This document shows positions 2,654-61,490 of a stretch of DNA of 64,000 bases, piece by piece. This DNA comes from a virus. The stretch's first letter is position 1, and each line of letters begins with the position of its first letter. The position numbers and the translations under genes were made by a program. The notes below the pieces were generated by a model. It saw nothing but the letters and a program-made list of their open reading frames with translations. It was not told where the DNA came from and searched no databases. The stretch lies in IMG/VR virus record IMGVR_UViG_3300049434_000014, positions 89,456 through 153,455 of that record. The stretch is one strand, 5' to 3'.

Positions 2654-2742
2654 CGGGTACGACCAGTCGTCTTCGGACAGGGCATAGTAGAGCCTGAACA
2701 GACAGAATAAACTAGATATGGGGAGCACCGAAGAGTGGTTGT

Positions 2743-3217
2743 GACTGGTCATGTCCACTCTCGGTGACTCGCTACGTTACACTGCAGATCGACTACTCAA
2801 TTCTGTTCAGGCCCGTTCGATTCATTTGACAACCCGGCACAGGCCCTCTCGCATCCATGCGACAATGCGAGTCTTGTCTCCCCCTGGCCCATGCCGACTG
2901 TCCGTCTCGCCTCCGTATCCCATCCTTTCCGTTCTGTGCCGACGAGCCAGCTCGATCCGGGTCTCTCCCACCCACCGACTAGTCTCTGCGGATCCTCCCG
3001 GGTCAGGTGACTCTGCCGATCTAGTCCCAGCGCATCATCTCGTGTCCGACTATCCGTATCCGTGCTTGTCGTTTCCAATCGACCAGTCAGTCCCGGTCAG
3101 TTCGTGCCTTGTTCCGACAGATCGCTGCTGTTCGTTTCCCGTCAGTGCGACGGACCGAGACTGTTCGCCTCCAATCAGTTCGACTACTCGACACAAGTCA
3201 CCCCAAGGCCGACGAAC
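2743..3217 (+). repeat. Pentamer-phased GAC-(NNNYC)n array 1 (~13 units), candidate ncRNA/guide array
   Basis: e.g. gac agatc gctgc tgttc gtttc ccgtc agtgc | gac ggacc gagac tgttc gcctc caatc agttc | gac tactc gacac aagtc. Confidence 0.9.
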
Positions 3218-3231
3218 CGTTAGGACTAGTT

Positions 3232-3453
3232 ATGGCACTGAGTGAGTCGGTGAAGAACCGTCTGCTGAACTGGAAGTTCGAGCAGGCGTGGCAGACCTTG
3301 TCTGAGGAGATGGGCGGGGATGCTTCGGAGGCTGAGGTTCAGACGGTGCGGGCGTTGGCGATCACGTTCGGGGATCCGGGTTGGTTTGAGGGTTCGATGG
3401 CAGACATCATCCGGGCTGTGTTGTGGTTTTTAGGAGTGACTGACGATGATTAG
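3232..3453 (+). CDS. Hypothetical protein
   Basis: ATG 3232 right after array 1; coupled to next gene. Confidence 0.6.
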   Translation: MALSESVKNRLLNWKFEQAWQTLSEEMGGDASEAEVQTVRALAITFGDPGWFEGSMADIIRAVLWFLGVTDDD

Positions 3454-4080: not shown

Positions 4081-4382
4081 GTGATCACAAGATCGTGGAG
4101 TTTCTGAATTTGTGCGTGTCGGCTGATGAGGCAACCGGGTTAGGTTCGCCGTGGGAGTTTATCTTCAAGCGACGCATCATTGTCATTCATGCCCCACGTA
4201 AAGACGATAATGAGCAGTGGGTGTGTGATGCGTGTTCGTGGATGCATCCTGAGATACGTCAGATTGTTAATGCGTACGCACCTTGCGAGCATTTGCAGTA
4301 TATGTCTATGATCTATTCTAAGCGGGCTGGGTTTGATCCGGATTGGATTCATGACGTGATCGGGTTCGCTGAGCTTCCCTAA
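4077..4382 (+). CDS. DUF6221-like hypothetical protein
   Basis: IVEFL..KRRII..PCEHL..YSKRAGFDPDW pattern recalls this actinobacterial family. Confidence 0.5.
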   Translation: MSDHKIVEFLNLCVSADEATGLGSPWEFIFKRRIIVIHAPRKDDNEQWVCDACSWMHPEIRQIVNAYAPCEHLQYMSMIYSKRAGFDPDWIHDVIGFAELP

Positions 4383-4403
4383 TACTCCGGGTTTTCCGGA
4401 TAT

Positions 4404-4906
4404 GACTACACTACTCCGATCCTTTCATGTCGTTGGCGAATCGTTCCCGTCCCGACTATTCGCCGCATGTCCCTTCGTGTCTTGCCAAGTCGACTATTCG
4501 TTTCGATCCCGGCCATTTCGTTTTGACTATTCGCATCGGATCCAGCTCCTATCGATTCGACTGATCTTGTCGACTACGCAAGTCAGTTCCGTTCTTTGCA
4601 TTGCGACTTGTCGAGCCTGTCCGTGTCCGCGCGTATCGACTACCCGATCCAGTTCCGTCCTTTCCCGCTCTTTCCGACTACGCTCGTCTCATCCGGGCAT
4701 GTCATCTCGACTACTCGATTCTTTCTCGTCGCTGCGGCTCTGTTCGACTACCCGGTTCGATACGGGACATCCCTGTCCGTTCTGACTACCCGTCTCCGTT
4801 CGCTTCTAGCCCAGTCCGTCTCGACAACCCATGTCGCGGCACTGCTCTTCTTTCCGTGACGACAGGCCAGTTCCAGTCTGTTCGTCTCTGTACGACATCA
4901 CACATC
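4404..4906 (+). repeat. Pentamer-phased GAC-(NNNYC)n array 2 (~14 units)
   Basis: gac tattc gccgc atgtc ccttc gtgtc ttgcc aagtc | gac tattc gtttc gatcc cggcc atttc gtttt | ... | gac aggcc agttc cagtc tgttc gtctc tgtac. Confidence 0.9.
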
Positions 4907-4920
4907 GGGTAGGAGTTGGG

Positions 4921-5124
4921 ATGTATACGTTTTCTGAGGGTGTGTTGATTACGGATGACATGATTGAGCGTGACGATTCGATCGAGCCTCGCGCGGGTCA
5001 GCCTTGCTGGTGTCCTGATTCGTTTATCGAGGCGTGTTTTTACGTGCGGTATTGCCCGCGCCACGGGTCGGTTCCTGATCAGGATCTCTGGAATTTCAGG
5101 GTTGCTCCATACGGGATCTCATAG
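4921..5124 (+). CDS. Small hypothetical protein
   Basis: aggag SD, ATG 4921; CWC and CPRH motifs. Confidence 0.5.
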   Translation: MYTFSEGVLITDDMIERDDSIEPRAGQPCWCPDSFIEACFYVRYCPRHGSVPDQDLWNFRVAPYGIS

Positions 5125-6009: not shown

Positions 6010-6080
6010 GGCTTCATAGACTAATGGCAGGTCACTAGCCTCTCAAGCTAGGAGTACGGGTTCGACCCCCGTTGGAGCTA
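6010..6080 (+). tRNA. tRNA-Glu(CTC)
   Basis: Acceptor ggcttca/tggagct; anticodon arm ctagc-ctCTCaa-gctag; T arm ggttcga. Confidence 0.85.
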
Positions 6081-6092
6081 CGTTTGTATTAA

Positions 6093-6162
6093 CGTTCCGT
6101 GGTGTAGGGATAGCACGCCGGTCACGGGACCGGTAGTCCACGTTTAACTCGTGGCGGAACGA
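6093..6162 (+). tRNA. Aberrant tRNA-like element (6-nt anticodon loop)
   Basis: Acceptor cgttccg/cggaacg; arm ccggt-cacggg-accgg; T loop tttaact. Confidence 0.5.
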
Positions 6163-6209
6163 CGCACGGCCTAGGATCGCCTCTGCTTCGGGCATGCGCC
6201 TAGGTCTCT

Positions 6210-6283
6210 CGGGATGTAGGGAAGCCAGGTATCCCACCTGTTTTGGGTACAGGAAGCCGCAGGTTCGAATCCTGCCGTCCCGA
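6210..6283 (+). tRNA. tRNA-Pro(TGG)
   Basis: cgggatg/cgtcccg; cctgt-ttTGGgt-acagg; ggttcgaatcc. Confidence 0.9.
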
Positions 6284-6285
6284 CT

Positions 6286-6360
6286 GGATGGATGTAGCTC
6301 AATGATAGAGCCCTTGGATTAACGTCTAAGGAGACGTGGGTTTGATTCCCGCCACCATCC
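6286..6360 (+). tRNA. Aberrant tRNA-like element (anticodon unclear, TAA or AAC)
   Basis: tagctcaatgatagagc D arm; bulged acceptor; cttgga-ttaacg-tctaag arm; gtttgatt T loop. Confidence 0.55.
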
Positions 6361-6365
6361 TTCAT

Positions 6366-6439
6366 GGTGAATGTAGCTCAAATGGCAGAGCGCCTGATTG
6401 TGGGTCAGGTCGTTGCGGGTTCGATTCCCGTCGTTCACC
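6366..6439 (+). tRNA. tRNA-His(GTG)
   Basis: G-1 and C73 present; cctga-ttGTGgg-tcagg. Confidence 0.9.
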
Positions 6440-6523
6440 CCGAGAGGGACGGAGTCCAAAGCACATATGGTACCTGTTGCTAGGACTTAAACGACAATGT
6501 TATGTGTGTCCGTCCTTCTCCTA

Positions 6524-6595
6524 TCCTCGTTAGCTCAAAGGCAGAGCGTGCGATTGTTAATCGCAGGGTTGTTGGTTCAAGTCCAGCACGGGGAG
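6524..6595 (+). tRNA. tRNA-Asn(GTT)
   Basis: tcctcgt/acgggga; tgcga-ttGTTaa-tcgca. Confidence 0.9.
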
Positions 6596-7043
6596 CGTTT
6601 GTTTATGGGTGTGACAGGATTGTGACAGTGGAGCCCGCTGAGCGGCACTGTTGAGGGTTCGAGTCCCTCCACTTCCACGAGATGGGCAGTCGTTGTCGCT
6701 TGCTTCTTTAGCTACGGTAATCACCCCGATGGAGCGAGTGACCCTTCACGCGAGGTCGGTTGGAGGCTGACAACCTGACGACAATTGGTGGGCTTGTCAC
6801 TCACCTACCTATCTCTGCTCGAACCACTTTGTTGGCGGGTTCGCTACCCGTACGGAGTGCCGGTTTGATCCAGATAGGCTCTAAGCCGAGGTGTGGGTGC
6901 GACCCCGCTAGCCCTCGGTGCCCCGAGGATCCCTTGCCAGAGAGGAACCGGATACGGATCTGGTGTTCGAGTAGTCGAGATGGACAGGGTCTGTGTGAAT
7001 AACGCAGCTTCAACGACACTGTGGTGTGCCTGTCCTTCTCCAA

Positions 7044-7114
7044 GGTGGAATGACCGAGCGGCTAGGTAGCGGTCTGCAAAACCGCGCACGCGGGTTCGAT
7101 TCCCGCTTCCGCCT
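7044..7114 (+). tRNA. tRNA-Cys(GCA)
   Basis: ggtggaa/ttccgcc; gcggt-ctGCAaa-accgc; U73. Confidence 0.9.
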
Positions 7115-7132
7115 CGTTGGGTAGGATATGTC

Positions 7133-7528
7133 ATGACTGAAACACTGGTAACGGCGCTTCTGAGGAACAAGCCAGGGAAGTGGGCGCACGTCCTTCACGA
7201 GGACTCGGTAGCTCCTAACATTCCCTCCCATCATCTGATGGATCTTGCGTGTGACGTGAATCTGGGCAATGATGAGTGGGCTCCTGCGGGTGCGTTTTCG
7301 GCAGTGATTCGGGATGCTTCGGATCTGTATGTTCGATTCAATTCAGATAAACCTGATGTCACTGAAGTTGTGGTGTCGTACCGTGCGTCGTTGAAGTACG
7401 GTAATTGCTTTGATTGCGGCCTTCCGGGTGCGCAGTATCTGTTGGTCGACGTGGGTGTGATGAACTGTCCGCTGTGTGCGGCTGAGGCTGCGGTAGCGGG
7501 CGCTCAGGTGACTAGGTTGGAGCGTTAG
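7133..7528 (+). CDS. Hypothetical protein with C-terminal Zn finger
   Basis: CFDC..CPLC; GGGTAGGAT 5 nt before ATG. Confidence 0.6.
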   Translation: MTETLVTALLRNKPGKWAHVLHEDSVAPNIPSHHLMDLACDVNLGNDEWAPAGAFSAVIRDASDLYVRFNSDKPDVTEVVVSYRASLKYGNCFDCGLPGAQYLLVDVGVMNCPLCAAEAAVAGAQVTRLER

Positions 7529-7537
7529 TTTGTTCGT

Positions 7538-7610
7538 GGGTCGTTAGTTTAACTGGTAAAACAGGAGCCTCCAAAACTCCACGATGTGGGTTCGATTCCT
7601 GCACGGCCCG
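7538..7610 (+). tRNA. tRNA-Trp(CCA)
   Basis: gggtcgt/acggccc; ggagc-ctCCAaa-actcc. Confidence 0.85.
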
Positions 7611-7775
7611 CTTATGAATGGGTAGGATGTGACATGTGGCAACGTGAGGATATGGCGAGGTTCCTTATTTGGCTTGACGATCAGGGTTTGCTTAATCCTC
7701 CCGTTGAGATCGAGATTGATGAGATCCTCGATTTTTATGAGGATTATACAGGCGTTTTTACCTCAAGGAGTAGAG

Positions 7776-8069
7776 ATGGCTGAGTCTCAGATTTTCGAAG
7801 AGCACACTGTTCGATACCCCGAGTGCGATAAGCTGCACCGTGTATCTGGCGATGTCTCGACGCTGCATGAGTTTCTGGAGTGGCTGGCTGAGAATGGCCT
7901 GCAGGTGTGCAGCCTTGAGGAGACTGGGAAGTTTGACTGTGATGGTCCGGTCGAGCATTACTTCCCAATCCGCGAGCAGCGAGAAGCTTTGGTGCAGCGG
8001 TTCTTTTCGATTGATCCAGCCAAGCTGGAGAGCGAGCGCAGGGCTATGCTTGCTGCACTGCAGAGTTGA
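7776..8069 (+). CDS. Hypothetical protein
   Basis: aaggag SD, ATG 7776. Confidence 0.65.
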   Translation: MAESQIFEEHTVRYPECDKLHRVSGDVSTLHEFLEWLAENGLQVCSLEETGKFDCDGPVEHYFPIREQREALVQRFFSIDPAKLESERRAMLAALQS

Positions 8070-8079
8070 TTGAAGACAT

Positions 8080-8161
8080 TACCCCGTCGTCTATTTTGGC
8101 AGGACGCTGTGCGGTGGTCGCTCCCCGTGCGGAGGTGCACGTTCGACTCGTGCCGGGGTAG
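8080..8161 (+). tRNA. tRNA-like element with extended anticodon arm
   Basis: taccccg/cggggta acceptor, normal D and T arms, ~26-nt anticodon arm. Confidence 0.55.
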
Positions 8162-8276
8162 CTGGAGGATAGATGTTAGCTAACGTTGTTGGTACGTTAC
8201 TTGGGTTGATGCTTTTTCTGTTGGTGATCGTGTCACTTGTGATGCTAGTTCTGTCGTTTGCTCGTGATTGATCCCT

Positions 8277-8349
8277 GCACCGGTAGCTCAGGGGATAGAG
8301 TGTCTGATTACGGATCAGAATGTCGCAGGTTCGATTCCTGCCCGGTGCG
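8277..8349 (+). tRNA. tRNA-Arg(ACG)
   Basis: gcaccgg/ccggtgc; tctga-ttACGga-tcaga. Confidence 0.9.
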
Positions 8350-8373
8350 CTCCCTAAGTTGTGGAGGCAAGTC

Positions 8374-14893: not shown

Positions 14894-15457
14894 ATGAGTG
14901 AACCTGTGCTTGATACACGTGATTACAATGCTGAGATGAATGAGCTTATTTCAGAGAAGATTCCTGCTGATGGGGATTTCATTCCTTCGCTGGCTGCGTG
15001 GAGCATCGTCTCAGCTCTCACCGAGACTGATCCTGAGCTTCTCGACGGTTGGCTGCGTTTGCACGCGAAGTCGTTTCTTACGGAGTTGATGCGTGCTCAG
15101 CTTCGTTCTCATCGTGCTCGGGTTCGGTCTAGTGCGAAGGCGACGGCGTTTTCGTCTGCTGCTAAGCGCTTTGAGAAAAACGGTGACCTCGCCGAGCTGG
15201 GCGGGTGGATGAAGATTCGGTATGTAGTCGATGATCAGAGTACGCAGCGTTGTCTTGGCGATATGGATCGTAATGATCTGAATTTCGTTGCTTCACGGTA
15301 TAGTCGGACGGCTCAGACTCTGTTGCTCGAGGAGGCGTTTCATCGCGCGCTAGCATCGCGGGTGGGTAGTCTGAAGGTCAGTGAGGTTTTCACTGAGGAG
15401 CAGATTAGCGCGATGTATCGTAATCTGAGTGGCAATACGCATACTGCTACTGCCTGA
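14894..15457 (+). CDS. Hypothetical helical protein, stop codon overlaps first GAC of array 3
   Basis: 187 aa ORF with gagga SD. Confidence 0.7.
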   Translation: MSEPVLDTRDYNAEMNELISEKIPADGDFIPSLAAWSIVSALTETDPELLDGWLRLHAKSFLTELMRAQLRSHRARVRSSAKATAFSSAAKRFEKNGDLAELGGWMKIRYVVDDQSTQRCLGDMDRNDLNFVASRYSRTAQTLLLEEAFHRALASRVGSLKVSEVFTEEQISAMYRNLSGNTHTATA

Positions 15458-15793
15458 CTTACCAAGACCAGTCACGGCTCATCCGTTCGATACCGTTCCG
15501 ACATGTCTAGCCTCATCCCGTCAAGTCTTGCCATTGCCGACACGTCTAAGCACGTCTATTCACGTCCGACATTCCAAGGCCAGTCGCGTCGCGTTGGGCC
15601 ATATCGCTTCCTTTCCGACTACGCACTTCTGCCCATAACTATTCACGGCGACTTCCCGTATCAGGCCAAGTCGAGCCGTTTCGACTACACACTTCTCGCC
15701 GCGCCTAGTCGGGACCGACTTCACAAGCCGGATCGTGACAGGTCAGTTCGAGACCGACTGGGCTATCCGAATCGTTTCTCATCCGACAATGTC
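15456..15793 (+). repeat. Pentamer-phased GAC-(NNNYC)n array 3 (9 complete units)
   Basis: gac atgtc tagcc tcatc ccgtc aagtc ttgcc attgc c | gac acgtc taagc acgtc tattc acgtc c | ... | gac ttccc gtatc aggcc aagtc gagcc gtttc. Confidence 0.92.
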
Positions 15794-15804
15794 AGGAGTG
15801 TCTA

Positions 15805-16119
15805 GTGACTATCTCTGCTCAAGAGATTCTTAACTTGCCGATGCAGTCTAACGATGCGCAGGCAGCTACAGTTGGAGAATACTTGGTTGCACTTGTTAGA
15901 GAAGTGTGGAGATTAAATGAGAATTTTAGCGGTAAGAGACCGTTTGGGAACAGTGGATGGCATTACGAGCTTTACGCACCGTTGGTGAGAGCAGGTTTAG
16001 TTGACGGGCTCACTAATGAGGATGGAGAGATTGAAGTTACTGATGGACGCAGGGCTGATGCGTTGATTGATTTGGCCATCTTGGGGCTCTGGAAGCCCAG
16101 CGCGGAGAGCACGCAATAG
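15805..16119 (+). CDS. Hypothetical phage protein
   Basis: aggag SD; FSGKRPFGNSGW motif. Confidence 0.7.
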   Translation: MTISAQEILNLPMQSNDAQAATVGEYLVALVREVWRLNENFSGKRPFGNSGWHYELYAPLVRAGLVDGLTNEDGEIEVTDGRRADALIDLAILGLWKPSAESTQ

Positions 16120-16772: not shown

Positions 16773-17531
16773 GTGACGGTTTCTACTTCGGCTCCTGTCA
16801 GTGTGTTTGCAAAGTACCGTGATGTCACGTGGCCTTATAGGTATGAGGGCACTCTGCACATCGATACCATTGCTGGAGGCATTCCTTCTGACGAGAAGGT
16901 TGCTGAGGCATGGTTACGTACGAAGTTGGAGAACAAAGACGACCTCATTCGTGAGGCCGTTGCTGAGACGATGGCCGCTCGCGGTGTCGGTAAGGAAGAG
17001 GCGGCACAGATCGTCGCTTCGATGAAGCACTTCACTGGTTTTAAGCGTGACAGCAATGGGCTATACATCGAAGGTCGTCAGCTGAAAGCGGCGATCAAGG
17101 AAGCGGCGATGATTGCTGTCGCCGCTGAGCGGATTCCCCTGCGCGGGTGGGGTGTTACCTCGAAGTACCTTAAGGGTTTCGTCGCGGAACACATCATGGT
17201 TGTCGATGACATCTTGTACTTGAAGGTGGACGGCACTCCTGCAAAGGAAGCTACTGGAATCACTCAGCAGTTCGTTCACACCCAGTACGGTTCGGCTCCG
17301 CACTACAAGGAGTTCGTGTCCGGTGCTACCATTGATTTCACGGTGATTACGGACTTCTTCTTCACCGAGGAGCATTGGATGCACATCTGGGCTACGGGTG
17401 AGCAGGAAGGGATCGGTGCCTCGCGCTCTGGCGGGTTCGGTCGCTACGTGGTTACTCGGTGGAATTTGGTGACTTCCCCACCAAAGAAGAAGGCTCCTGC
17501 CAAGGAGAAGGAAGCGGCTGCAGTTAGGTAG
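16773..17531 (+). CDS. Solitary RAMP-superfamily (Cas7/Csm3-like) RNA-binding protein
   Basis: aggagg SD; LYIEGRQLKAAIKEA matches the RAMP IPGSSxKGxxR motif; C-terminal G-rich loop GIGASRSGGFGRY; N-terminal strand YEGTLHI. Confidence 0.8.
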   Translation: MTVSTSAPVSVFAKYRDVTWPYRYEGTLHIDTIAGGIPSDEKVAEAWLRTKLENKDDLIREAVAETMAARGVGKEEAAQIVASMKHFTGFKRDSNGLYIEGRQLKAAIKEAAMIAVAAERIPLRGWGVTSKYLKGFVAEHIMVVDDILYLKVDGTPAKEATGITQQFVHTQYGSAPHYKEFVSGATIDFTVITDFFFTEEHWMHIWATGEQEGIGASRSGGFGRYVVTRWNLVTSPPKKKAPAKEKEAAAVR

Positions 17532-17564: not shown

Positions 17565-17862
17565 GACAAGCCAAGCCGCATCCAGACGCGCCACCGCGCT
17601 TCGACTATTCGTGTCAGATCTATCCATCTCCTTCGACCAGCCGTGTCGCGATCATGTCGCTTCCTAGTCCTTTCGACCTGTCGCTACGTTGCGCTTCTTG
17701 GCATATCCACACCGACCATGCGCGCCGCGACCTTACAAATCCTCTCGCCCTGACGAGTCTCCACGCGGCTCTACAATACTCATCATTCTGACAAGTCTTC
17801 ACGCGGCTCTACAATACTCATCATTCTGACTAGCCAAACCGGTACATACCATTTCGCACGAC
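17565..17862 (+). repeat. Pentamer-phased GAC-(NNNYC)n array 4 (8 units), directly downstream of the RAMP gene
   Basis: gac aagcc aagcc gcatc cagac gcgcc accgc gcttc | gac tattc gtgtc agatc tatcc atctc cttc | ... | gac ctgtc gctac gttgc gcttc ttggc atatc cacac c. Confidence 0.92.
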
Positions 17863-17871
17863 TGAGGACTA

Positions 17872-18993
17872 ATGTCTACTGAGCCTTGGACTTTACGATA
17901 CCGACCACGCAAGTTTTCTGATGTTACTGGTCAGAAGGCGGTTCGGTTGGTGCTGCAGCGAATGGTCGTCACGGGTGACGTCCGCTCAGCTTTGCTGTTT
18001 CATGGTTCACACGGTTCAGGTAAGACTTCCATGGCACGGATACTTGCTGCCGCTTTGAATTGCGAAGCTGAGGATCCCGCTGCTCGCCCGTGCGGTGTGT
18101 GTGCGATTTGCGATTCGACAGCGCATGGCCGGTCTGCTGATGTCACGGAAATCGATGCTGCATCGTCCGGGCTCGCTGCGGATATGCGCGCGTTGCGCGA
18201 GACGGTGCGTTTCGCTGCTCAGGCTCGCTATCGTGTGGTGATCCTCGATGAGTGTCACGCTATGTCGCCTACGGGCTTTCAGACTTTGTTGAAGACTTTA
18301 GAGGAGCCTCCTGCCAACACGGTGATCATTCTCGTGACTACTGTCCTCGACAAGGTTCCGGACACGATCGTGTCTCGGTGTTTGTCGTTGGAGTTTCGTC
18401 GGTTGACGGAAGAGCAGATCGCTGGTCGACTGGCTCAGATCTCTGAGGCTGAGGGCCTTGAGCTGGCCCCTGCGCTTGCCAGGTCGGTTGCTGCCCGCTC
18501 GAGGGGGATCGCCCGTGACGCTGTCTCTCTGCTTGAGCAATGTGCTCTTGTGCGTGTACGGACTCCTGAGCAGCTGGCGGTTTTACTAGGCGACGATGAC
18601 CATGGGATCGCGATCCTGCGTGCGCTGGTCGGTCCTCCTGGTCATATGTCGCCAGGAGCCAATCACCCCTCAGATTTTTCTGTGGCATTCGGGTGTATTG
18701 AGAGCGCTCTGGCCACCTTGCCCTCACCGGGTGAGGTGGTGGCCGCGCTCGTGCGGACGCTGAAGCGGTTGCTGATTTTGACCTCTGGCGGGGATGGATC
18801 TTTCATGCATCCTCCTAGTACTGCGGGCGAAGTGGCTCTAGCTGGGCTTTTGGACTCAGCACGGTGTGTTACCGCGATGAGAGTAGTTTGGGAGTATTAT
18901 TCTAAAGTCGCACCGGTTGCTGATGCTTATGCAGCTATGGATCTTTTGGTAACGCTTTTGAGTCAGGCTCTTAAGTCGTCTTCTCGTACGTAG
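17872..18993 (+). CDS. dnaX: DNA polymerase III gamma/tau clamp-loader subunit
   Basis: RYRPRKFSDVTGQ, Walker A GSHGSGKTS, PCGVC Zn site, ILDECH, LLKTLEEPP, TIVSRC. Confidence 0.93.
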   Translation: MSTEPWTLRYRPRKFSDVTGQKAVRLVLQRMVVTGDVRSALLFHGSHGSGKTSMARILAAALNCEAEDPAARPCGVCAICDSTAHGRSADVTEIDAASSGLAADMRALRETVRFAAQARYRVVILDECHAMSPTGFQTLLKTLEEPPANTVIILVTTVLDKVPDTIVSRCLSLEFRRLTEEQIAGRLAQISEAEGLELAPALARSVAARSRGIARDAVSLLEQCALVRVRTPEQLAVLLGDDDHGIAILRALVGPPGHMSPGANHPSDFSVAFGCIESALATLPSPGEVVAALVRTLKRLLILTSGGDGSFMHPPSTAGEVALAGLLDSARCVTAMRVVWEYYSKVAPVADAYAAMDLLVTLLSQALKSSSRT

Positions 18994-18995
18994 TC

Positions 18996-19038
18996 GACTA
19001 ATCCCTATCACTTCGCTACTACTCTGATCGTCTCCGAC
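18996..19038 (+). repeat. Single-unit copy of the GAC-pentamer element
   Basis: gac taatc c ctatc acttc gctac tactc tgatc gtctc c gac, right after the dnaX stop. Confidence 0.65.
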
Positions 19039-19066
19039 GTTTCTTTGGCGTGTCGAACATTGCTGT

Positions 19067-19570
19067 GTGACGCAGCTTTATCCGGTACCTGATCAGGACA
19101 ATCTGCCTGTCTTGCAGGACCCTGACGCGACCGCGTTTGATGAGCTTCCTGAGACGATGTGGAATCTTCCCGCTGCTATTGCGGATGATTCCATGCGGGA
19201 TTTGCACGCGCAGCTCATTCGTGGGTTGCGTCGTGATGCTGCGCATTTGCCTACGGGCACGCTGCAGAGCATGCAGCTGGAGCGCATTGCGTATTACTAC
19301 ATCTTGATTCGCTACCGTGATCACACAAACACGTGGTCTTCTCCACGTGACCGGTTGGCGACTTATAAGTTATGGCGTGATCTATCGTCTGACTTTAATT
19401 CTGTGGCGTACGGAAATAAGATCTCTCCTGAGGATCTCCATGCCATTGTTGCTTCTCATACTGCCAAGCTTGTGGCGGGCGTTTTGCGCTCTATGCCGCA
19501 CAATGAGGCACGACCTCTCTACGCGAAGTTCGCCGCAGCCCTGGACTCCTCCCCAGCCGCCAGCGAGTGA
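19067..19570 (+). CDS. Hypothetical helical protein
   Basis: 167 aa ORF; no function recognised. Confidence 0.65.
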   Translation: MTQLYPVPDQDNLPVLQDPDATAFDELPETMWNLPAAIADDSMRDLHAQLIRGLRRDAAHLPTGTLQSMQLERIAYYYILIRYRDHTNTWSSPRDRLATYKLWRDLSSDFNSVAYGNKISPEDLHAIVASHTAKLVAGVLRSMPHNEARPLYAKFAAALDSSPAASE

Positions 19571-55033: not shown

Positions 55034-55807
55034 TTGATAGTGCTATCACCACAACAGCGTAAGTTGATTGAAGATAGAGTTGGACTGGCTCGCGCTGTAG
55101 GTCATAAAGAGTGGAAGAAGTTATCAGGATACGAACGCGACGAAGTGATCGCGTGGGCTCTGCATGGGTTGGTGTCTGCTGCGGTGCGCTGGCCAGCTTA
55201 TTGCGAAGAGCATGGTTATGAAATGTATACTGAGACTGCTCAGTCTTGGTTCAATACTTATGCGTCGCAGCGGATTCATGGTGCTGTGATTGACGCATTA
55301 CGTTCTTTAGATCCTGCTACGCGACGAGAGCGCGCGATAGTTAAGGACATTATTGCTCACGGTGTGGACTTGTATTCTCCGTGGGATCATGATTCTCCTG
55401 AGTCGATCGCTGCTGCCACGGGCCTGCCTATCGCGGACGTCTCAGCGGCGATCTCAGCGCTCATGCGGGTGCCTCTGAGCCTCGATGAGGCCGTGGAGCT
55501 TGAGCAGGCTCCTGACCCTCGCAACGTCGAAGCTGAGGCGCTGGCGGCTGATCTGGCGGGCCGTGTGGTGGCAGCGGTGTCCGCGCTGCCTCGGCTTCAT
55601 CAGCGTGTATTGATCTTGTCGGTGCATCTCGGCTATTCTGATGTTGAGGTGGCCAAGGCTCTCCCTGAGATCTCGCGGGATCCTGTTATGAGACGCTGGT
55701 CTGTGCAATGGATTGTGTTCCTTCGCAGGCAGGCCCAAGACTCATTGATTGCTACCCTGCGAGCTGAGCTAGATCCGGGTGAGGAATCTTGGGCTGCGAG
55801 CGGGTAG
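55034..55807 (+). CDS. Sigma-70 family factor, FliA/WhiG-like
   Basis: FNTYASQRIHGAVIDALRSLD (region 2.3-2.4 of sigma28), PLSLDE, LPRLHQRVLIL region 4. Confidence 0.8.
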   Translation: MIVLSPQQRKLIEDRVGLARAVGHKEWKKLSGYERDEVIAWALHGLVSAAVRWPAYCEEHGYEMYTETAQSWFNTYASQRIHGAVIDALRSLDPATRRERAIVKDIIAHGVDLYSPWDHDSPESIAAATGLPIADVSAAISALMRVPLSLDEAVELEQAPDPRNVEAEALAADLAGRVVAAVSALPRLHQRVLILSVHLGYSDVEVAKALPEISRDPVMRRWSVQWIVFLRRQAQDSLIATLRAELDPGEESWAASG

Positions 55808-55944
55808 GAGCAAACCAATCCGGGCGGGGCATAGGGATAGCCGGACAGACTTCCCATTACAGGATAATCCAGACATATACCCTATATCTCAACAGTGTAT
55901 GCTAGGATGCTTCATCGGACTCCGGGTCGCCGGATACATCTTGT

Positions 55945-58900
55945 GACTAGTCGAGTGCACTCCCCATCCCTTCTCGTCTCGCGACTAGTCGAGTTCCCGT
56001 CCCGGCACCTCCTGTCGTATCGACTAGTCGCTTACCGTCTCGTCAAGTCAGATCCGTATGACTAGCCGAACCCGTACCGTCCTCGCCGTTTCCAGACCGA
56101 CATGTCTATGCCCTGCTGAGCAGCTCGTGTCTGTCCGACTGTTCTGTCTCGACTTGTCGAGTCGGATCCTCCCGTTCCCGACAAGTCGACTCGGGTCGAT
56201 GCGGTCGACTGTTTTTATGACAAGTCGATACCGTCCAGGTCAGATCAGGTCGACCATTCTCACGACAAGCCGAGATTGTGCCGGGTCCGTCCGGGTCGAC
56301 AAGCCACGTCTTTACCAGTCTTCTCCGTTCGACAGGTCGAGTCATAGCGATTCGTGCGACTCTACTGTTTCGATTCTGCTGTCTCGACTGTATCCTCACG
56401 ACAAGCCGACTCGGGCTCACGTCCCGCCAATATGACTTATCAGTTCGACTGATCAACGCGACAAGTCAAGTCCCCTCGGGTCCATTCGTGTCATTGCGTT
56501 TCGACAAGTCAAGTCGCACCGAGTCTAGTCACGGTGACTATGCTATGCGGGTCAGTACCGTCCCAGACAATTCTGTTCTGTCGACCACGCTATCCGGGTC
56601 AGGGCTAAGCCAAGCGACCGCGCTTGCCTGTTCGTTCCATTTCATTCGACTTCTCACTTACGACTTCTCATGTCTGGGCACGTCATCTCGAGAGACAATC
56701 CAAGTCTGAACACAACAGCTCGACTCAGAAGACAACTCAAGTCACGCCTTGCCCAGTCATCCCCGTGCGACTACTCCTGTCACTGCGAACCAACCCGGTC
56801 CTTACGACTATTCCTTGCATAGCGAAGCACATCGTTTCCTTCTGACTTTGCACTCAGACCATACAGAACGACTTCTCTGTTCGAGACAGTTCGCGGCGAT
56901 TCCTTTCGACTGTTCCCTTTCCTGACAGAGCCAGTCATTTCAATTCACTGCCTTCCCGACGAGTCAGATCCGTTCGCGTCCGGGTCCTGTCTTCTCGTTT
57001 CGACCTGTCCGATCAAATCTGGGCCTGACGGTTCTGTACCGACTCTTTCAACATGACTATTTCAAACAGACTGTTCCAGCCAGGTCAATACGGCGCTCCC
57101 CGACTTATCAGTACGACAAGTCAACTCAAGGCAATGCAGCTCCTCCCCGTTTCCGACTGGCCCAGTCAGGTCAATACAGGGCTCTCTGACGGTTCTGTTC
57201 CGACAAGCCAGCTCACGACAAGTCAAAGCAAGTCAGTTCGGGTCCGTTCGTTTCGACAAGTCCTCTCAGGTCTGATCTCTCCGACAAGCCAGCTCACTGC
57301 GGATCCGTTCGTTTCGACTATTCGGGTGTGGTCACGTCAATGCGGATCGGTATGACTAATCGACTCCTGTCCGATCAGCTCTCTGCCGACTTGCCTTGTC
57401 CAACCCGACTCAGTGCAAGCGACTTGTCCTGACGCGGCGTGTCAGTCCAGCATCGACTATTCTGGTCCTGACGGCCCCGATCATGTCGCCTCGACTTCCC
57501 CTCCCACGCCGGGTCACCTCCCTTCTTTCGACAGTTCGGATCCAGTCACTTCCCATACACTTCGACATGTCCTATCCGTTCGAGTCAGATTCAGATCCTT
57601 ACCGACTACTCCTGTCAGTTTCGATACCGTTCAATCCAAGTCAGTGCGACTACGCATGTCGCGGCGAGTCATTTCCGGGTCAGCTCCGACTCTACGAACC
57701 CGACTGGTCGCGTCTGATCCTTGGCCCTTCCGTTCTTTCCCGACTGGTCAAGACAAGTCCTTTCCCGTCTGTTGACAGGTCAGATCCAGTCATGTCCCTT
57801 CATTGCGACGAGTCTCCGCACTTCGGGTCTGCACGTTCCGACGAGTCTACGCAATTCGATCCCGTACATTTTCGACTGGTCGCATCTGGTCTATGCCATT
57901 TCACGTCGACTAGTCGCACCTGCCCGCTACCTTTCCACGTCGACTGGCCAAGCCGTTGCGGTGACACGTCATTTCAGATCGCCTTCTGCCCCGACACTGC
58001 GAGTCACGTCACTGTCTCTGCGGGCCAGTTCTGATCACTTCGACTATTCGACACGAGCCTTACCGAGTCTGTTCGACTAGACGATCCGTTACCAGTCGCT
58101 ACGACTATATGTTCACGACTATCCGATGCGATCCTTAGCTGATCTAGTCGCTCTGACTACTCGATTCGTTTCGTGTTCTATCCCGACTATGCGAGTCTTC
58201 TCCCATCGAACCGTTCTGACTACTCGATCCATTTCGACGCCGCTTCGTATCTGCCCCGACTACTCGAGCCAATTCTATTCACGTCGACTCAGATGACTGG
58301 CTTATGACAATACAGCCCGCACCGTTTCCCTGCCTCCCCAATCCATGCAGTCCCGACTGCGCGCATCATCTCCATACCCTTCCACTCCCTACATCACTGA
58401 CTGACCAAGTCGAGACACGTCATTTCATCACCGACTGACCAAGTCGGGTCAACTCCACCTCATCTCCGACTCCACGGACCACTTCCCTTCCGTTCGCCAC
58501 GACTCTTTCGATACGATTCTTTTAATACGATTCTTTTAATACGATTCTTTTAATACGATTCTTTTAATACGACTGTTCAGCTCGCCTTCATTGCCACGAC
58601 CATTCCTTTCCCTTCTGACTGTTCATCTCGGTTCATGTCCGTCCATCTCTAGTCGACTACTCTTGCCGGGTCTGTGCTGCTCCGACTACTCCCGTCAGGC
58701 CCGAGCATTTCGCTTACCGACTACTCCGATCCTCCCACGTCCCATCACCTCGGTACGACTGTTTCGTTGCGACTACTCAGGTCACTCCATTCCCCTTCGA
58801 CTACCGACTGTTCGTGTCACGACATTTCCACCCTTATCAAGACGACTCATCATTACGACACGTCGTGGCGAGGCGACACATTCCGCACACGTCTTTTCCG

Positions 58901-60215
58901 ACACGTCATTATCGAGTCGTCTCGACACCGCTTCCCTTCACGTCCGACTCTACGAATCTACACATTCGACCGACCACTTCGGATCCAGTCATGGCTGCCC
59001 CCTTCCGTTCTCTTCCGACAAGTCGCATCGCGTCCTGTACGCTGTCAAGTCACTGCACATGACTAGTCGGCTTCGTTTCGCTGTCTCCCCGTGTCATTTC
59101 CCGTCCGACAAGCCGCAATCAACACGCGTCCCGTCATACCGAGACGACTGGTCAATATGACAAGCCGCTTTCAACTCGCCTACGCGTCATGCCGACAAGT
59201 CGACACGCTTACCATCCATTGCTCTGCCGACCACCCAAGCCTGCCCCCTGCCGCTGCGCCTCGATGCCGACCAAGCGCTTCTTTGCTGTCCGCGCCCGTT
59301 TCGATACCGACCAGCCGCTTCTTTGCCAGTCCGGGTCAGTTCCTTTCCGACTTGTCCCTGCTGATCAGTACAATCCGAGTCGACAAGCCATGCCAATTCA
59401 AATCACTTCACTGTGACAAGTCACGACGGATCCATTCATTTCTGAGCGACAAGTCACGACGATTCCTCCCACTTCTGGTCGACTGTTTCGGTGCGACTAC
59501 CCGTGTCCCTGCATGTCTTGTCAAGTCTTGTCAATGCCGACTATTCGGGTCATGTCTGCGCGCGTCGACAACACCACTCAAGTCCACCGCAGTCGATTCT
59601 ATTCCGACAAGTCAGGTCAAAGCGGGTCAGCTCTCACCGTTACCGACAAGTCAGATCAGGTCGAGTCAGTTCCTATCAATGCGACAAGTCGCATCCCATC
59701 CGTGCGGGTCTGCTCGCCTGCTGACAAGTCACGTCGCTTCCCCTCGCCACGACTCGTCAAATCAAGCCGTGCCATGTCTACTCGTTTCGACAAGCCAGGT
59801 CACAGCAAGTCGGCTCATTGCGACGAGCCAGGTCACGACAAGTCCCCTCCCGTCCGACGAGTCAGAGCCGTACAAGTCCCTTCCTTACCGACTACTCTGG
59901 TCAATACGATTCCAGTCCTGTCGACAAGTCAGATCAGAACGCGCCACCTCATTTCAGCCCGACAAGCCTAATCGGGTCCTGCCATTTCGGTTCAGTGCGA
60001 CTACTCGTCTCGTGTCCCTTCCTGTCATTGCGCTCCCCGTCCGACAAGTCATTTCCGCGTCGACCCAACGCGCTGCGACATGTCAAGTCGGGTGCGCGTC
60101 ATGGCTCTGCACTTCCCTTCCGACTACTCCCGACAAGACCCGTCTGGCCGGTTTCGAGCCGGATCTCTGCGAGCCAATCCGACTGCTCCGTTCGTGACAT
60201 GCCGTTGACGTCTTC
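55945..60215 (+). repeat. Large pentamer-phased GAC-(NNNYC)n array 5 (~4.3 kb, roughly 110-130 units estimated from unit length)
   Basis: gac aagtc aagtc ccctc gggtc cattc gtgtc attgc gtttc | gac aagtc aagtc gcacc gagtc tagtc acggt | gac tatgc tatgc gggtc agtac cgtcc; no credible CDS. Confidence 0.93.
58511..58570 (+). repeat. Perfect tandem repeat (atacgattctttta) x4.3 inside array 5
   Basis: Directly visible. Confidence 0.95.
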
Positions 60216-60453
60216 ACGGGTAAGCCGGTAGGACGGGGAGGTGACTAACCACAACTGAGCCTCGGAGGCCGTTGTGACAGACATGAGCTTGTTTGAGTTA
60301 CAGTTCCCGCTTTGTGGGGAAGAGTTGCACGGTAATCCTGACGAGGTGTTCGCTTGTGTAGAGCTGGAGGGGCACAAGGTGTGGGAGGTTCCGCTGCCGT
60401 GTCGTGATAGCCTGGGTCTGGTGTGGTAGGGGCTCTGCGTTAGGATTTTCCTA

Positions 60454-60807
60454 ATGGGGCGGGGATCTGTTGTGGGGAGTCTGTTGGCGCTTCATCGTCG
60501 GGCTGAAGGCTCCACAGAGCGAGTGAAACGACAATGGTTGGTTTGTAACTCTCCTGATTTATATCATGTTCCGAATACTCCGTGTGCGGCTCGTGATTGT
60601 AAGACGTGTGGTGAGCAGGTTTGGGTTCCGATGTTGTTTCTACCGTTGGTGGAGTCTGGGGAGTTGTCTCCGGTGTGCTGGCCGTGTCATGATGCGACGG
60701 GTCGGCGGGTGGGGATGCATCGGTTAGAAGAGCCCATCATCAAGTCGATGGGTAAGATGGGTGAAGCACAGGAACTTCTCGATTACCTGAATTCTCATCT
60801 CGACTGA
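60454..60807 (+). CDS. Zn-finger hypothetical protein (start uncertain)
   Basis: CKTC..CWPC. Confidence 0.55.
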   Translation: MGRGSVVGSLLALHRRAEGSTERVKRQWLVCNSPDLYHVPNTPCAARDCKTCGEQVWVPMLFLPLVESGELSPVCWPCHDATGRRVGMHRLEEPIIKSMGKMGEAQELLDYLNSHLD

Positions 60808-61490
60808 TTTATTACGACTGATTTACTACGACTGATCTAATCGTGTCCCATCGTTACGTTTCGACTGGCCGATTCTGTTCCCGACTGAGCTAGTCGCGTT
60901 CGCTCATATCAGTTCCCTTCCGACTATTCATTCGCTTCAGCGCATCTCGGTCCATACGACAAGTCCGCTCGCGGCTACTCGTGTCGAGTGACATGCCATG
61001 TCAAGTCCTTACGTTTCTTTTCGACGTGTCAAGCCAATACCTCACAGCTCCCGTCTTAAGACTCGGCTGGGCGACCCAGATCTCATCACGTCATTGCGAC
61101 CAGTCGAGCCAACCCCTGTTCGCGTCTATGTGACCAGCCGCTTCGAGCCAGCTCGCGAACGCTTCCCGTCAGTACCGACTCACCTGCTCAAGCCCATTCG
61201 GTTTCCGGCCCGACTAGCCTCGTCGCCTCTTGCCCTTTCTGTTCGACTTGTCTCCGCTCCCCCACTCATCTCCTGGCCGACTACTCACCTCGTGCCCATC
61301 CGGGTCCCCCCGTTTCGCGGCGACTACTCAAGACAGCACACGATCTCGTCTATCCGCTTCGACTACTCCAATCCGCTCAATTGCGTCTTGCCAGATCACA
61401 TCCGACTACCCATAGCCATATCGAGTCTTGTCTCGGCGACTCCGACTACCCGATCCGTCGCACTTCTTTTCATCCCTGTTCGACTGTCCT
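60802..61490 (+). repeat. Pentamer-phased GAC-(NNNYC)n array 6 (~18 units)
   Basis: gac tgatc taatc gtgtc ccatc gttac gtttc | ... | gac tactc acctc gtgcc catcc gggtc ccccc gtttc gcggc | gac tactc aagac agcac acgatc tcgtc tatcc gcttc. Confidence 0.9.

What the first reader, a model, noticed from the sequence alone, without database searches (positions are those of the whole stretch)
55945..60215. 4.3-kb non-coding array of over 100 distinct pentamer-phased units
Seen: continuous (C)GAC-punctuated units, mostly 33-43 nt, with C at every fifth base and mostly T before it. Units differ in sequence, so this is neither a satellite nor CRISPR. The pyrimidine-rich + strand contrasts with the G/T-rich coding DNA. 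Inference: a very large guide repertoire served in trans by the RAMP gene 38 kb away. A phage retaining 4 kb without genes suggests selection.
Basis: partly seen in the sequence, partly recalled or inferred. Interest (0 to 1): 0.92.

Follow-up and report, generated by a model that had tools for sequence, protein, structure and literature searches.

The report
Pentamer-phased arrays partnered with phage Cas7-like
A 4.3-kb gene-free stretch of this actinobacterial phage is a real array of about 100-140 short units with a C at every fifth base, and the same kind of array sits next to a stand-alone Cas7/Csm3-like protein gene in dozens of other phages and prophages, pointing to an undescribed, CRISPR-independent RNA-protein system whose role is still unknown.

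Summary
Window 55945-60215 is non-coding and C-rich. It has very strong 5-nt periodicity (lag-5 z = 20.7) and GAC-headed units whose lengths step by five.

It is the largest of seven such arrays, which make up 4.7% of a complete 153-kb phage genome.

- The 252-aa protein at 16773-17531 folds like Csm3/Cas7 (Foldseek E 4e-7, Z 10.3).
- In about 40 of 47 independent viral and prophage loci, its homologues have an array of the same grammar on the sense strand directly beside the gene. The grammar is CGAC, then (T/A)A.., then pentamers ending in C.
- A conserved helical 170-185-aa protein is usually encoded just upstream.
- Complete relatives that lack the gene have no arrays.

The 'guide repertoire' reading is not supported by what I could test:
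- Variable positions are near maximum entropy.
- Units arise by tandem duplication.
- No unit matches the phage's own genome above controls.

My best reading is an unstructured RNA platform on which the Cas7-like protein polymerises in a 5-nt register. Its biological role is open.

I found no description in the literature I could search. First readers of this scan noted the same pairing in another genome. There is no experimental evidence.

The parts
55945..60215 (+). Main array: about 100-140 GAC-headed units, each made of pentamers that end in C. By the C lag-5 detector it spans 55917-60229.
55803..55810 (+). Promoter-like motif GGTAGGAG, overlapping the stop codon of the sigma-like gene, 114 nt before the detected start of the array (55917).
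   Evidence: The motif GGTAG[GT]A[CG] occurs 71 times on the + strand and 9 times on the - strand of the genome; sequence.
60227..60234 (+). The same promoter-like motif (GGTAGGAC) at the 3' edge of the array, ahead of the next small ORFs.
60767..61339 (+). Second array about 0.55 kb downstream of the main one, with the same grammar.
16773..17531 (+). Gene for the stand-alone Cas7/Csm3-like protein (P0001, 252 aa).
   Evidence: AF2 model with pLDDT 76. Foldseek top hits are all Csm3/Cas7, best E 3.6e-7. VIA Z 10.3, with all 50 top entries being Cas7 proteins. No Pfam, PHROG or NCBIfam hit.
14894..15457 (+). Gene for the conserved all-helical partner family (P0004, 187 aa), which lies upstream of the array and the Cas7-like gene in most loci.
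15407..15855 (+). Array that starts at the stop codon of P0004, upstream of the Cas7-like gene.
17567..17942 (+). Array directly downstream of the Cas7-like gene. It is preceded by TGGGTACGAT and contains a 38-nt unit duplicated in tandem.
18996..19070 (+). Mini-array of 1-2 units in the gap after dnaX.
   Evidence: read by eye
2727..3243 (+). Array upstream of the tRNA cluster.
4307..4975 (+). Array upstream of the tRNA cluster. The 4.1-kb array of relative G002 lies at the matching position.
55034..55807 (+). FliA/WhiG-type sigma-like gene immediately upstream of the main array. It is the candidate reader of the promoter-like motif.
   Evidence: NCBIfam TIGR02479 E 8e-12, below the curated cut-off. 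Homologous to Magritte gp47.

Best explanation
The 4.3-kb tract is an expanded copy of a conserved non-coding element. That element belongs to a three-part phage module: a helical 170-185-aa protein, then the array, then a stand-alone Cas7/Csm3-like protein.

Most likely mechanism (inferred, not shown):
- The array is transcribed in the sense direction from the phage's own GGTAG(G/T)AC-type promoter.
- The transcript is a C-rich, G-poor, weakly structured RNA.
- The Cas7-like protein polymerises on it, one subunit per pentamer. It reads the invariant C and the pyrimidine before it.
- Each (C)GAC(T/A)A head resets the register. Heads either nucleate assembly or mark a cut, giving units of 5n+3 nt (28, 33, 38, 43...).

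This parallels Cas7 backbones, which measure crRNA in 6-nt steps, but here the step is 5 nt and the positions are base-specific.

The free positions drift and units multiply by tandem duplication. So the array acts as a high-capacity binding platform or store of units rather than as a library of acquired guides.

What the RNA-protein complex then does is open. My leading guess is that the coat controls whether this ideal Rho substrate terminates transcription at module boundaries, acting as a timing switch or insulator. Roles as a guide or a decoy are not excluded.
For: Shown:
- Real periodicity and grammar.
- The tract is non-coding.
- There are seven arrays, all on the + strand, totalling 7.1 kb or 4.7% of a complete genome. 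Locally shuffled genomes do not exceed the detection threshold of 0.075.
- P0001 has a Cas7/Csm3 fold.
- Across 36 viral loci, the sense-strand C lag-5 signal peaks from -800 to -100 relative to the gene start. The antisense signal never passes the threshold.
- The same holds in 10-11 of 11 actinobacterial prophage loci, in a Nocardiopsis prophage and beside a homologue only 31% identical in phage Mae-JY09.
- Pooled over 42 loci, head-to-head distances peak at 33, 38, 43, 48 and 53 nt, and 144 of 304 distances are 3 mod 5. C frequency is 0.78-0.90 at every fifth base after the head, and the control DNA is flat.
- Presence and absence agree: G000, G002 and G001 have both the gene and arrays, while G005 and Magritte have neither.
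- The helical partner family is found in 46 of 60 loci.
- Arrays run up to the ribosome-binding site of the Cas7-like gene.
- Promoter-like motifs bracket the big array.
- The + strand folds weakly: -23.6 kcal/mol per 120 nt, against -37.8 for coding DNA.
- Arrays are replaced completely between phages whose Cas7-like genes are 86-92% identical, while the format is kept.
- Adjacent units are related by duplication (TRF).

Inferred by analogy with established knowledge: Cas7 filaments kink crRNA every sixth base, and type III crRNAs mature in 6-nt steps.
Against: - There are no expression data, so RNA rather than DNA is inferred only from strand, position and promoter-like motifs.
- No known Cas7 reads bases or uses a 5-nt step.
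- The Pfam RAMP model does not detect the protein.
- The helical partner, not the Cas7-like protein, could be the periodic binder.
- In G000 the biggest array lies 38 kb from the gene.
- About 860 subunits would be needed to coat one full-length transcript.
- Complete turnover of arrays between close relatives is faster than simple drift. It would also fit a diversifying, guide-like role.
Confidence: 0.5

Rival explanations
1. Guide repertoire. The array is cut at the GAC heads into 28-43-nt RNAs. These load into Cas7-like filaments and base-pair with host or rival-phage nucleic acids through the variable positions. The fifth base is flipped out, like the sixth base in CRISPR complexes.
For: The protein has a Cas7 fold. 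Units are distinct: 136 of 137. Unit lengths are quantised as crRNAs are. Arrays turn over very fast between close relatives, as spacer content does.
Against: Positions 3 and 4 are biased to the same bases in every unit and every phage, which natural targets could not mirror. Only 2-3 of every 5 bases are free. New units come from tandem duplication. No adaptation genes, Cas6 or Cas10 are present. No unit matches the phage's own genome above controls. Host targets were not testable.
Confidence: 0.15
2. Rho-dependent termination or insulator zone acting on its own. The long, untranslated, C-rich, G-poor, YC-dense RNA simply loads Rho and stops read-through between gene modules of a genome in which all genes point the same way. 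The Cas7-like protein would be unrelated or only modulatory.
For: The C:G ratio is 1.6 here and about 2.5-3 in high-GC relatives. The YC dinucleotide is the conserved core of each pentamer. The RNA is weakly structured. Arrays are intergenic and on the sense strand. There is no intrinsic terminator at the array ends beyond chance. Established knowledge: Rho primary sites bind YC and prefer unstructured RNA with more C than G.
Against: Rho needs no exact 5-nt phase, no GAC heads and nowhere near 4 kb. This does not explain the tight linkage to the Cas7-like and helical genes, nor the absence of arrays in relatives without them.
Confidence: 0.18
3. DNA-level element: a replication origin or iteron field, a zone of primase recognition sites (T7-type primases recognise pentamers ending in GTC), or a decoy for DNA-binding host factors.
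For: The main array lies between the SNF2/RNR/sigma genes and the DnaB-primase-PolI module. GTC-ending pentamers are the commonest. The heads are partly palindromic (GAC..GTC).
Against: In high-GC relatives the pentamers end in CC, not GTC. The arrays sit at several non-origin positions, including a 5' UTR that runs up to a ribosome-binding site. The strict single-strand polarity follows the direction of transcription in all loci. The associated protein has an RNA-binding Cas7 fold.
Confidence: 0.07
4. RNA decoy or sponge. Together with a Cas7 mimic, the arrays soak up a host factor, such as type III/I CRISPR subunits, an RNase or Rho, as an anti-defence measure.
For: A Cas7-like protein is encoded by a phage. 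The array has large binding capacity. The hosts are Actinomycetota, where type I and III systems are common (general knowledge). RNA anti-CRISPRs set a precedent for RNA decoys (from memory, not checked here).
Against: The grammar resembles no CRISPR repeat. Nothing tested here links the module to any host system. The module is also kept in temperate prophages, in the early lytic operon.
Confidence: 0.08

Closest known systems
Type III CRISPR-Cas backbone (Csm3/Cmr4 Cas7 filament on crRNA)
   Same: The protein fold matches (Foldseek E 4e-7, Z about 10). It has a G-rich loop. Short RNA-sized units of about 30-45 nt have lengths quantised by a fixed step. The units begin with a constant 5' mark.
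   Different: There is no repeat-spacer CRISPR array. G000 has no Cas1, Cas6 or Cas10. The Pfam RAMP model does not match. The step is 5 nt rather than 6. The phased positions are base-specific (YC). The units are not captured sequences.
Type IV-B Csf complex (Cas7-like Csf2 plus Cas11 assembled on non-CRISPR RNA; bioRxiv 10.1101/2020.07.31.231399)
   Same: A Cas7 filament that works without a CRISPR array, carried on mobile elements of Actinobacteria and paired with a small helical protein.
   Different: Type IV-B binds heterogeneous cellular RNA and has Csf1 and Csf3. Here a dedicated, genome-encoded RNA grammar accompanies the protein. The helical partner shows no detectable Cas11 fold (inconclusive).
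TRAP binding to 11 (G/U)AG triplets spaced by 2-3 nt (Bacillus trp attenuation)
   Same: An oligomeric protein reads a short motif repeated about every 5 nt on unstructured RNA. The free spacer bases in between are unconstrained. The outcome is control of termination. (Established knowledge.)
   Different: The protein fold and motif are unrelated. TRAP has one site of about 55 nt, not kilobase arrays. There is no head motif.
Rho utilisation (rut) sites
   Same: C-rich, G-poor, unstructured and YC-dense untranslated RNA.
   Different: rut sites have no strict phase and no heads, are about 80 nt long, and are not linked to a dedicated phage protein.
RNA anti-CRISPRs / solitary repeat units of phages
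   Same: Phage-encoded non-coding RNA elements that engage Cas-family proteins. (From memory, not checked here.)
   Different: Those elements mimic host CRISPR repeats. These arrays do not resemble repeats, and they come with the phage's own Cas7-like gene.

Membership tests
CRISPR-Cas effector (type III-like) | Cas7/RAMP fold of the backbone protein | tested here: met
   AF2 model with pLDDT 76. Foldseek top hits are Csm3 and type VII Cas7, E 3.6e-7. VIA Z 10.3 over 171 residues, with all 50 top entries being Cas7 proteins.
CRISPR-Cas effector (type III-like) | Sequence membership in the RAMP superfamily models | tested here: not met
   PF03787 finds nothing in G000 at E <= 1. P0001 has no Pfam, PHROG or NCBIfam hit. 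The alignment profile finds no PDB sequence.
CRISPR-Cas effector (type III-like) | CRISPR array of identical repeats alternating with unique spacers | tested here: not met
   TRF and my parse show no conserved repeat longer than the 3-9-nt head. Units are contiguous pentamer runs.
CRISPR-Cas effector (type III-like) | Accompanying cas genes (cas10, cas6, cas1) | tested here: not met
   No Csm1/Cas10, Cas6 or Cas1 match in the complete genome. Cas5 and Cas2 were not searched.
CRISPR-Cas effector (type III-like) | 6-nt periodic grip on the RNA | not testable with these tools
   The sequence period of the presumed RNA is 5 nt.
Type IV-B-like (Cas7 + Cas11 on non-CRISPR RNA) | Cas11-type helical-bundle small subunit | tested here: inconclusive
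   P0004 is all-helical (AF2 pLDDT 84). It has no fold match at Foldseek E < 1 or VIA Z > 5. Cas11 proteins are known to align poorly with each other.
Satellite / microsatellite DNA | Near-identical units, with decay uniform across positions | tested here: not met
   136 of 137 units are distinct. Position 5 is 97% C while positions 1-2 are near maximum entropy.
Protein-coding gene | 3-nt periodicity, or homologues of the ORFs | tested here: not met
   Autocorrelation at lags 3, 6 and 9 is below shuffles. Five ORFs in the tract, including the longest, have no Pfam hit. The ORFs arise from the scarcity of stop codons on the pyrimidine-rich strand.
Rho-dependent terminator (rut) | C>G, unstructured, YC-rich untranslated RNA | tested here: met
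   C 34% and G 21%. MFE is -23.6 against -37.8 kcal/mol per 120 nt for coding DNA. Only the composition is met; termination itself was not testable.

The most novel reading that the evidence does not exclude
Actinobacterial phages carry a CRISPR-independent Cas7 system. A genome-encoded RNA written in a pentamer code (free-free-K-Y-C, with GAC start marks) programmes the length and placement of Cas7-like filaments. The resulting particles act either as guides through the free bases, or as a protein switch that masks Rho-loading RNA to time gene expression. The 4.3-kb array would be the largest known store of such units.
Probability: 0.3. Interest if true: 0.95.

Novelty: categorically new. Interest (0 to 1): 0.86.

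Why it matters
If the pairing is functional, a CRISPR backbone protein has been taken over by phages. It would work with its own hard-wired, non-CRISPR RNA grammar, and it would read bases in a 5-nt step that no known Cas7 uses.

That would add a new class of viral RNA-protein machinery. It would explain why large phages keep kilobases of gene-free DNA against their own mutational bias.

It would also give a simple, sequence-programmable rule (a C every fifth base plus a GAC start) for placing protein filaments on RNA. The rule could be tested and possibly engineered.

The module is common: more than 900 homologues across Streptomyces, Nocardiopsis, Actinomadura and freshwater Actinomycetota. 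Yet it appeared in only one record of the 50,697-record phage collection, which may explain why it has been missed.

Tried and rejected
- blastn of the tract against 50,697 phage records: no match.
- Rfam, whole window: only tRNAs.
- Complex prediction (Cas7-like with the helical partner) was unavailable.
- A metagenome scan with the sigma-like protein found no relatives.
- The Atlas search on P0004 was uninformative.
- P0004 fold searches (Foldseek on PDB, VIA wide): nothing above background.
- My plain lag-5 identity detector missed arrays in high-GC DNA. This first made me think, wrongly, that the Cas7-like gene was not tied to arrays. A C-specific lag-5 detector fixed this.
- Idea: T7-type primase pentamers (..GTC). 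Dropped because high-GC relatives use ..CC.
- Idea: tandem promoters. Dropped because there are no -10/-35 pairs beyond chance and no internal TGGGTA motifs.
- Idea: the tract is under selection for being unstructured beyond what its composition gives. Not supported: MFE z is about 0 against shuffles.
- Pure (NNGTC)n arrays found in 41+ other viral contigs looked like relatives. The DNA I hold for them has no Cas7-like homologue, and they lie antisense to their neighbouring genes. I do not merge them with this system.
- Six literature searches found no description. The library lacks most subscription journals.
Full report
**1. The observation**

The tract 55945-60215 was read directly.
- Its composition is C 34%, G 21%, T 26%, A 19%. 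The rest of the window, where essentially all genes lie on the + strand, has G 30% and C 23.5%.
- Base autocorrelation against 200 shuffles gives z = 20.7 at lag 5, 11.2 at lag 10 and 8.5 at lag 15.
- Lags 3, 6 and 9 are negative, so there is no codon signal.
- At longer range the peaks move to 28, 33, 38 and 43, and the FFT period is 4.75-4.8. The reason is that each unit contains one 3-nt step.

A dynamic-programming parse shows the anatomy: (C)GAC followed by 5-8 pentamers.
- Over 721 pentamers, position 5 is C in 97%, position 4 is T in 58% and position 3 is G or T in 72%. Positions 1-2 are nearly free.
- There are 138 in-phase GAC heads. Head-to-head distances peak at 33-34, 38-40 and 43-45 nt.
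- 136 of 137 segments are distinct.

Long + strand ORFs exist only because stop codons are rare on this pyrimidine-rich strand. They have no Pfam hits. Rfam finds nothing in the tract.

**2. Genome context**

The window is the last 64 kb of a 153,455-bp contig. Its ends overlap by exactly 127 bp. IMG/VR classes it as complete with terminal repeats. I read the overlap as a closed circular assembly, so the contig ends are arbitrary.

The phage is actinophage-like, with a Mu-type portal, protease and F protein. Its nearest cultured relative is Microbacterium phage Magritte, with 46% portal identity.

Upstream of the array lie an SNF2 helicase, a class II ribonucleotide reductase and a FliA/WhiG-like sigma factor. 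Across the contig junction comes the DnaB-primase-PolI-SSB-RecA module.

A C-specific lag-5 detector finds seven arrays, all on the + strand, totalling 7.1 kb or 4.7% of the genome. Locally shuffled genomes do not exceed the detection threshold of 0.075.

A promoter-like motif, GGTAG[GT]A[CG], occurs 71 times on the + strand and 9 times on the - strand. It often lies just before genes. It occurs 114 nt before the detected start of the main array (55917) and again at its 3' edge.

**3. Relatives keep the format, not the sequence**

A 146-kb IMG/VR phage (G002, 65% portal identity) has a 4.1-4.3-kb array plus two smaller ones. A 186-kb phage (G001) has about 1 kb.

The arrays sit at the same three syntenic places, but their sizes are swapped. 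G000's giant array follows the sigma gene. G002's giant array sits before the tRNA cluster.

The arrays do not align between the genomes. G005 and Magritte, both complete relatives, have no arrays.

**4. The link to the 'RAMP' gene**

P0001 (16773-17531) has no Pfam, PHROG, NCBIfam or PDB-sequence match. It has more than 900 homologues at about 60% identity.

An AlphaFold2 model from a 29-sequence alignment (pLDDT 76) matches Csm3 and Cas7 chains:
- Foldseek E is 3.6e-7.
- VIA Z is 10.3 over 171 residues.
- All 50 top entries are Cas7 proteins of types III-A, III-B, III-D, III-E and VII.

At first I thought the gene was not tied to arrays, because my identity-based detector was blind in high-GC DNA. 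Reading the 426-nt gap before the homologue in a Nocardiopsis prophage showed the same grammar written with C instead of T: CGAC TACCC, then NNNCC pentamers.

With the C-specific detector, the association is clear:
- About 30 of 36 viral loci that include upstream DNA have an array on the sense strand directly before the gene.
- The averaged signal peaks from -800 to -100 relative to the gene start. It is zero inside the gene and elsewhere, and it never appears on the antisense strand.
- An independent set from bacterial genomes gives 10-11 of 11. The genera include Streptomyces, Nocardiopsis, Streptosporangium, Actinomadura, Streptacidiphilus and Pedococcus.
- The only homologue in the 50,697-record phage collection, in phage Mae-JY09 at 31% identity, has the array immediately downstream instead.

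Pooled over 42 loci:
- Head-to-head distances peak at 33, 38, 43, 48 and 53 nt.
- 144 of 304 distances are 3 mod 5.
- C frequency is 0.78-0.90 at every fifth base after the head.
- Control DNA is flat.

A second conserved gene, an all-helical protein of 170-185 aa (P0004 here), lies upstream of the array in 46 of 60 loci. Its model (pLDDT 84) has no fold match.

G000 has no Cas1, Cas6 or Cas10 and no CRISPR array.

**5. How the arrays evolve**

- Pairs of phages whose Cas7-like genes are 86-92% identical have arrays that share only the last 40 nt or so, next to the ribosome-binding site.
- Within the big array, adjacent units share variable positions far more often than distant ones. At 11 or more of 18 positions, this holds for 8 of 57 adjacent pairs against 0.3% of distant pairs.
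- TRF also sees unit-length tandem duplications in the arrays: 33-34 nt in the main tract and 38 nt at 17750-17830.
- Information content is high only at the head and at pentamer positions 4-5.

So units are born by duplication and diverge quickly at unconstrained positions.

**6. Test of the guide idea**

I compared 76 well-phased units with both strands of the phage genome outside the arrays, ignoring every fifth base. The best matches were 15-18 of 24 positions, the same as for column-permuted control units.

The shared bias at positions 3-4 in all units and all phages cannot mirror natural targets. Host targets could not be tested because the host is unknown.

**7. Mechanism**

Shown:
- a strand-specific, phased, non-coding element
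- a Cas7-fold protein and a helical protein that co-occur with it at fixed geometry
- presence and absence that agree across related genomes.

Inferred:
- the element acts as RNA, judged from sense polarity in every locus, the promoter-like motifs, continuity up to the ribosome-binding site and weak folding
- the Cas7-like protein binds one pentamer per subunit, with GAC heads setting the register. This is by analogy with Cas7 filaments and the 6-nt quantisation of type III crRNAs.

The composition makes the RNA an ideal Rho substrate. A protein coat that competes for the same YC dinucleotides would give a simple read-through switch at module boundaries. That is my leading functional guess, but it is untested. 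Guide, decoy and DNA-level readings are listed as rivals.

**8. Comparison with known systems, and novelty**

The protein is a structural relative of Csm3, but the locus fails the defining features of a CRISPR-Cas system. It has no repeat-spacer array, no other cas genes and no match to the RAMP sequence model.

The nearest precedent is type IV-B, in which a Cas7 and Cas11 filament assembles on non-CRISPR RNA. That system has no dedicated RNA grammar.

TRAP is the nearest precedent for reading a motif every 5 nt or so on RNA.

Six literature searches found no description. Earlier first-reader notes in this scan record the same pairing in this genome and in one other. Those notes are unchecked AI notes and do not count as independent evidence.

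**9. Limits**

Everything here is computational. No RNA data could be obtained. No complex prediction could be run. The Cas7 assignment rests on a predicted model of middling confidence, although every top structural hit is a Cas7 protein.

Noticed in passing
L184 7890-8470; L019 6540-7220; also L199, L203, L213, L223 and others: Pure (NNGTC)n pentamer arrays of 150-850 nt occur in at least 41 unrelated IMG/VR contigs. In L184, blocks of about 24 pentamers are separated by a conserved 35-nt spacer. In L019 the array lies just upstream of a TnpB/Cas12f-like gene. The DNA I hold for these contigs has no Cas7-like homologue. Neighbouring genes lie on the opposite strand: a Mu-F-like protein, a lambda-type portal, and an unknown family of about 190 aa in 19 loci. 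Unexplained.
   Followed up: partly
window 55803, 60227, 16698, 52204 and others; genome-wide: The motif GGTAG[GT]A[CG], often extended to TGGGTAG(G/T)AC, occurs 71 times on the + strand and 9 times on the - strand. It mostly lies 10-60 nt before gene starts. It resembles the GGGTA-type -10 elements of SigF/SigB-group sigma factors, and the phage encodes a FliA/WhiG-like sigma (55034-55807).
   Followed up: partly
window 6010-8350: A cluster of eight tRNA genes lies just downstream of two arrays. In relative G002 the 4.1-kb array sits at this position.
   Followed up: no
window 58499-58572: Inside the main array, a 14-nt unit (ACGATTCTTTTAAT) is repeated 5.3 times at 95% identity. This is a local slippage event that breaks the pentamer phase.
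   Followed up: no
window 60233-60800: Small ORFs between the two terminal arrays encode Cys-pair motifs, which look like zinc ribbons. I read them only by eye.
   Followed up: no
whole genome G000 and G002: Strand composition is extreme. G+T makes up 58% of the coding strand in G000 and 63% in G002. The arrays run against this bias.
   Followed up: no
genome ends (1-127 = 153329-153455): The terminal repeat is exactly 127 bp. This looks like an assembler k-mer overlap of a circular contig rather than true terminal repeats.
   Followed up: partly
L172 15562-15771: A relative that carries the Cas7-like module also encodes an Acb2/Tad1-hairpin protein, an anti-CBASS/Thoeris sponge family, near its lysis genes.
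   Followed up: no
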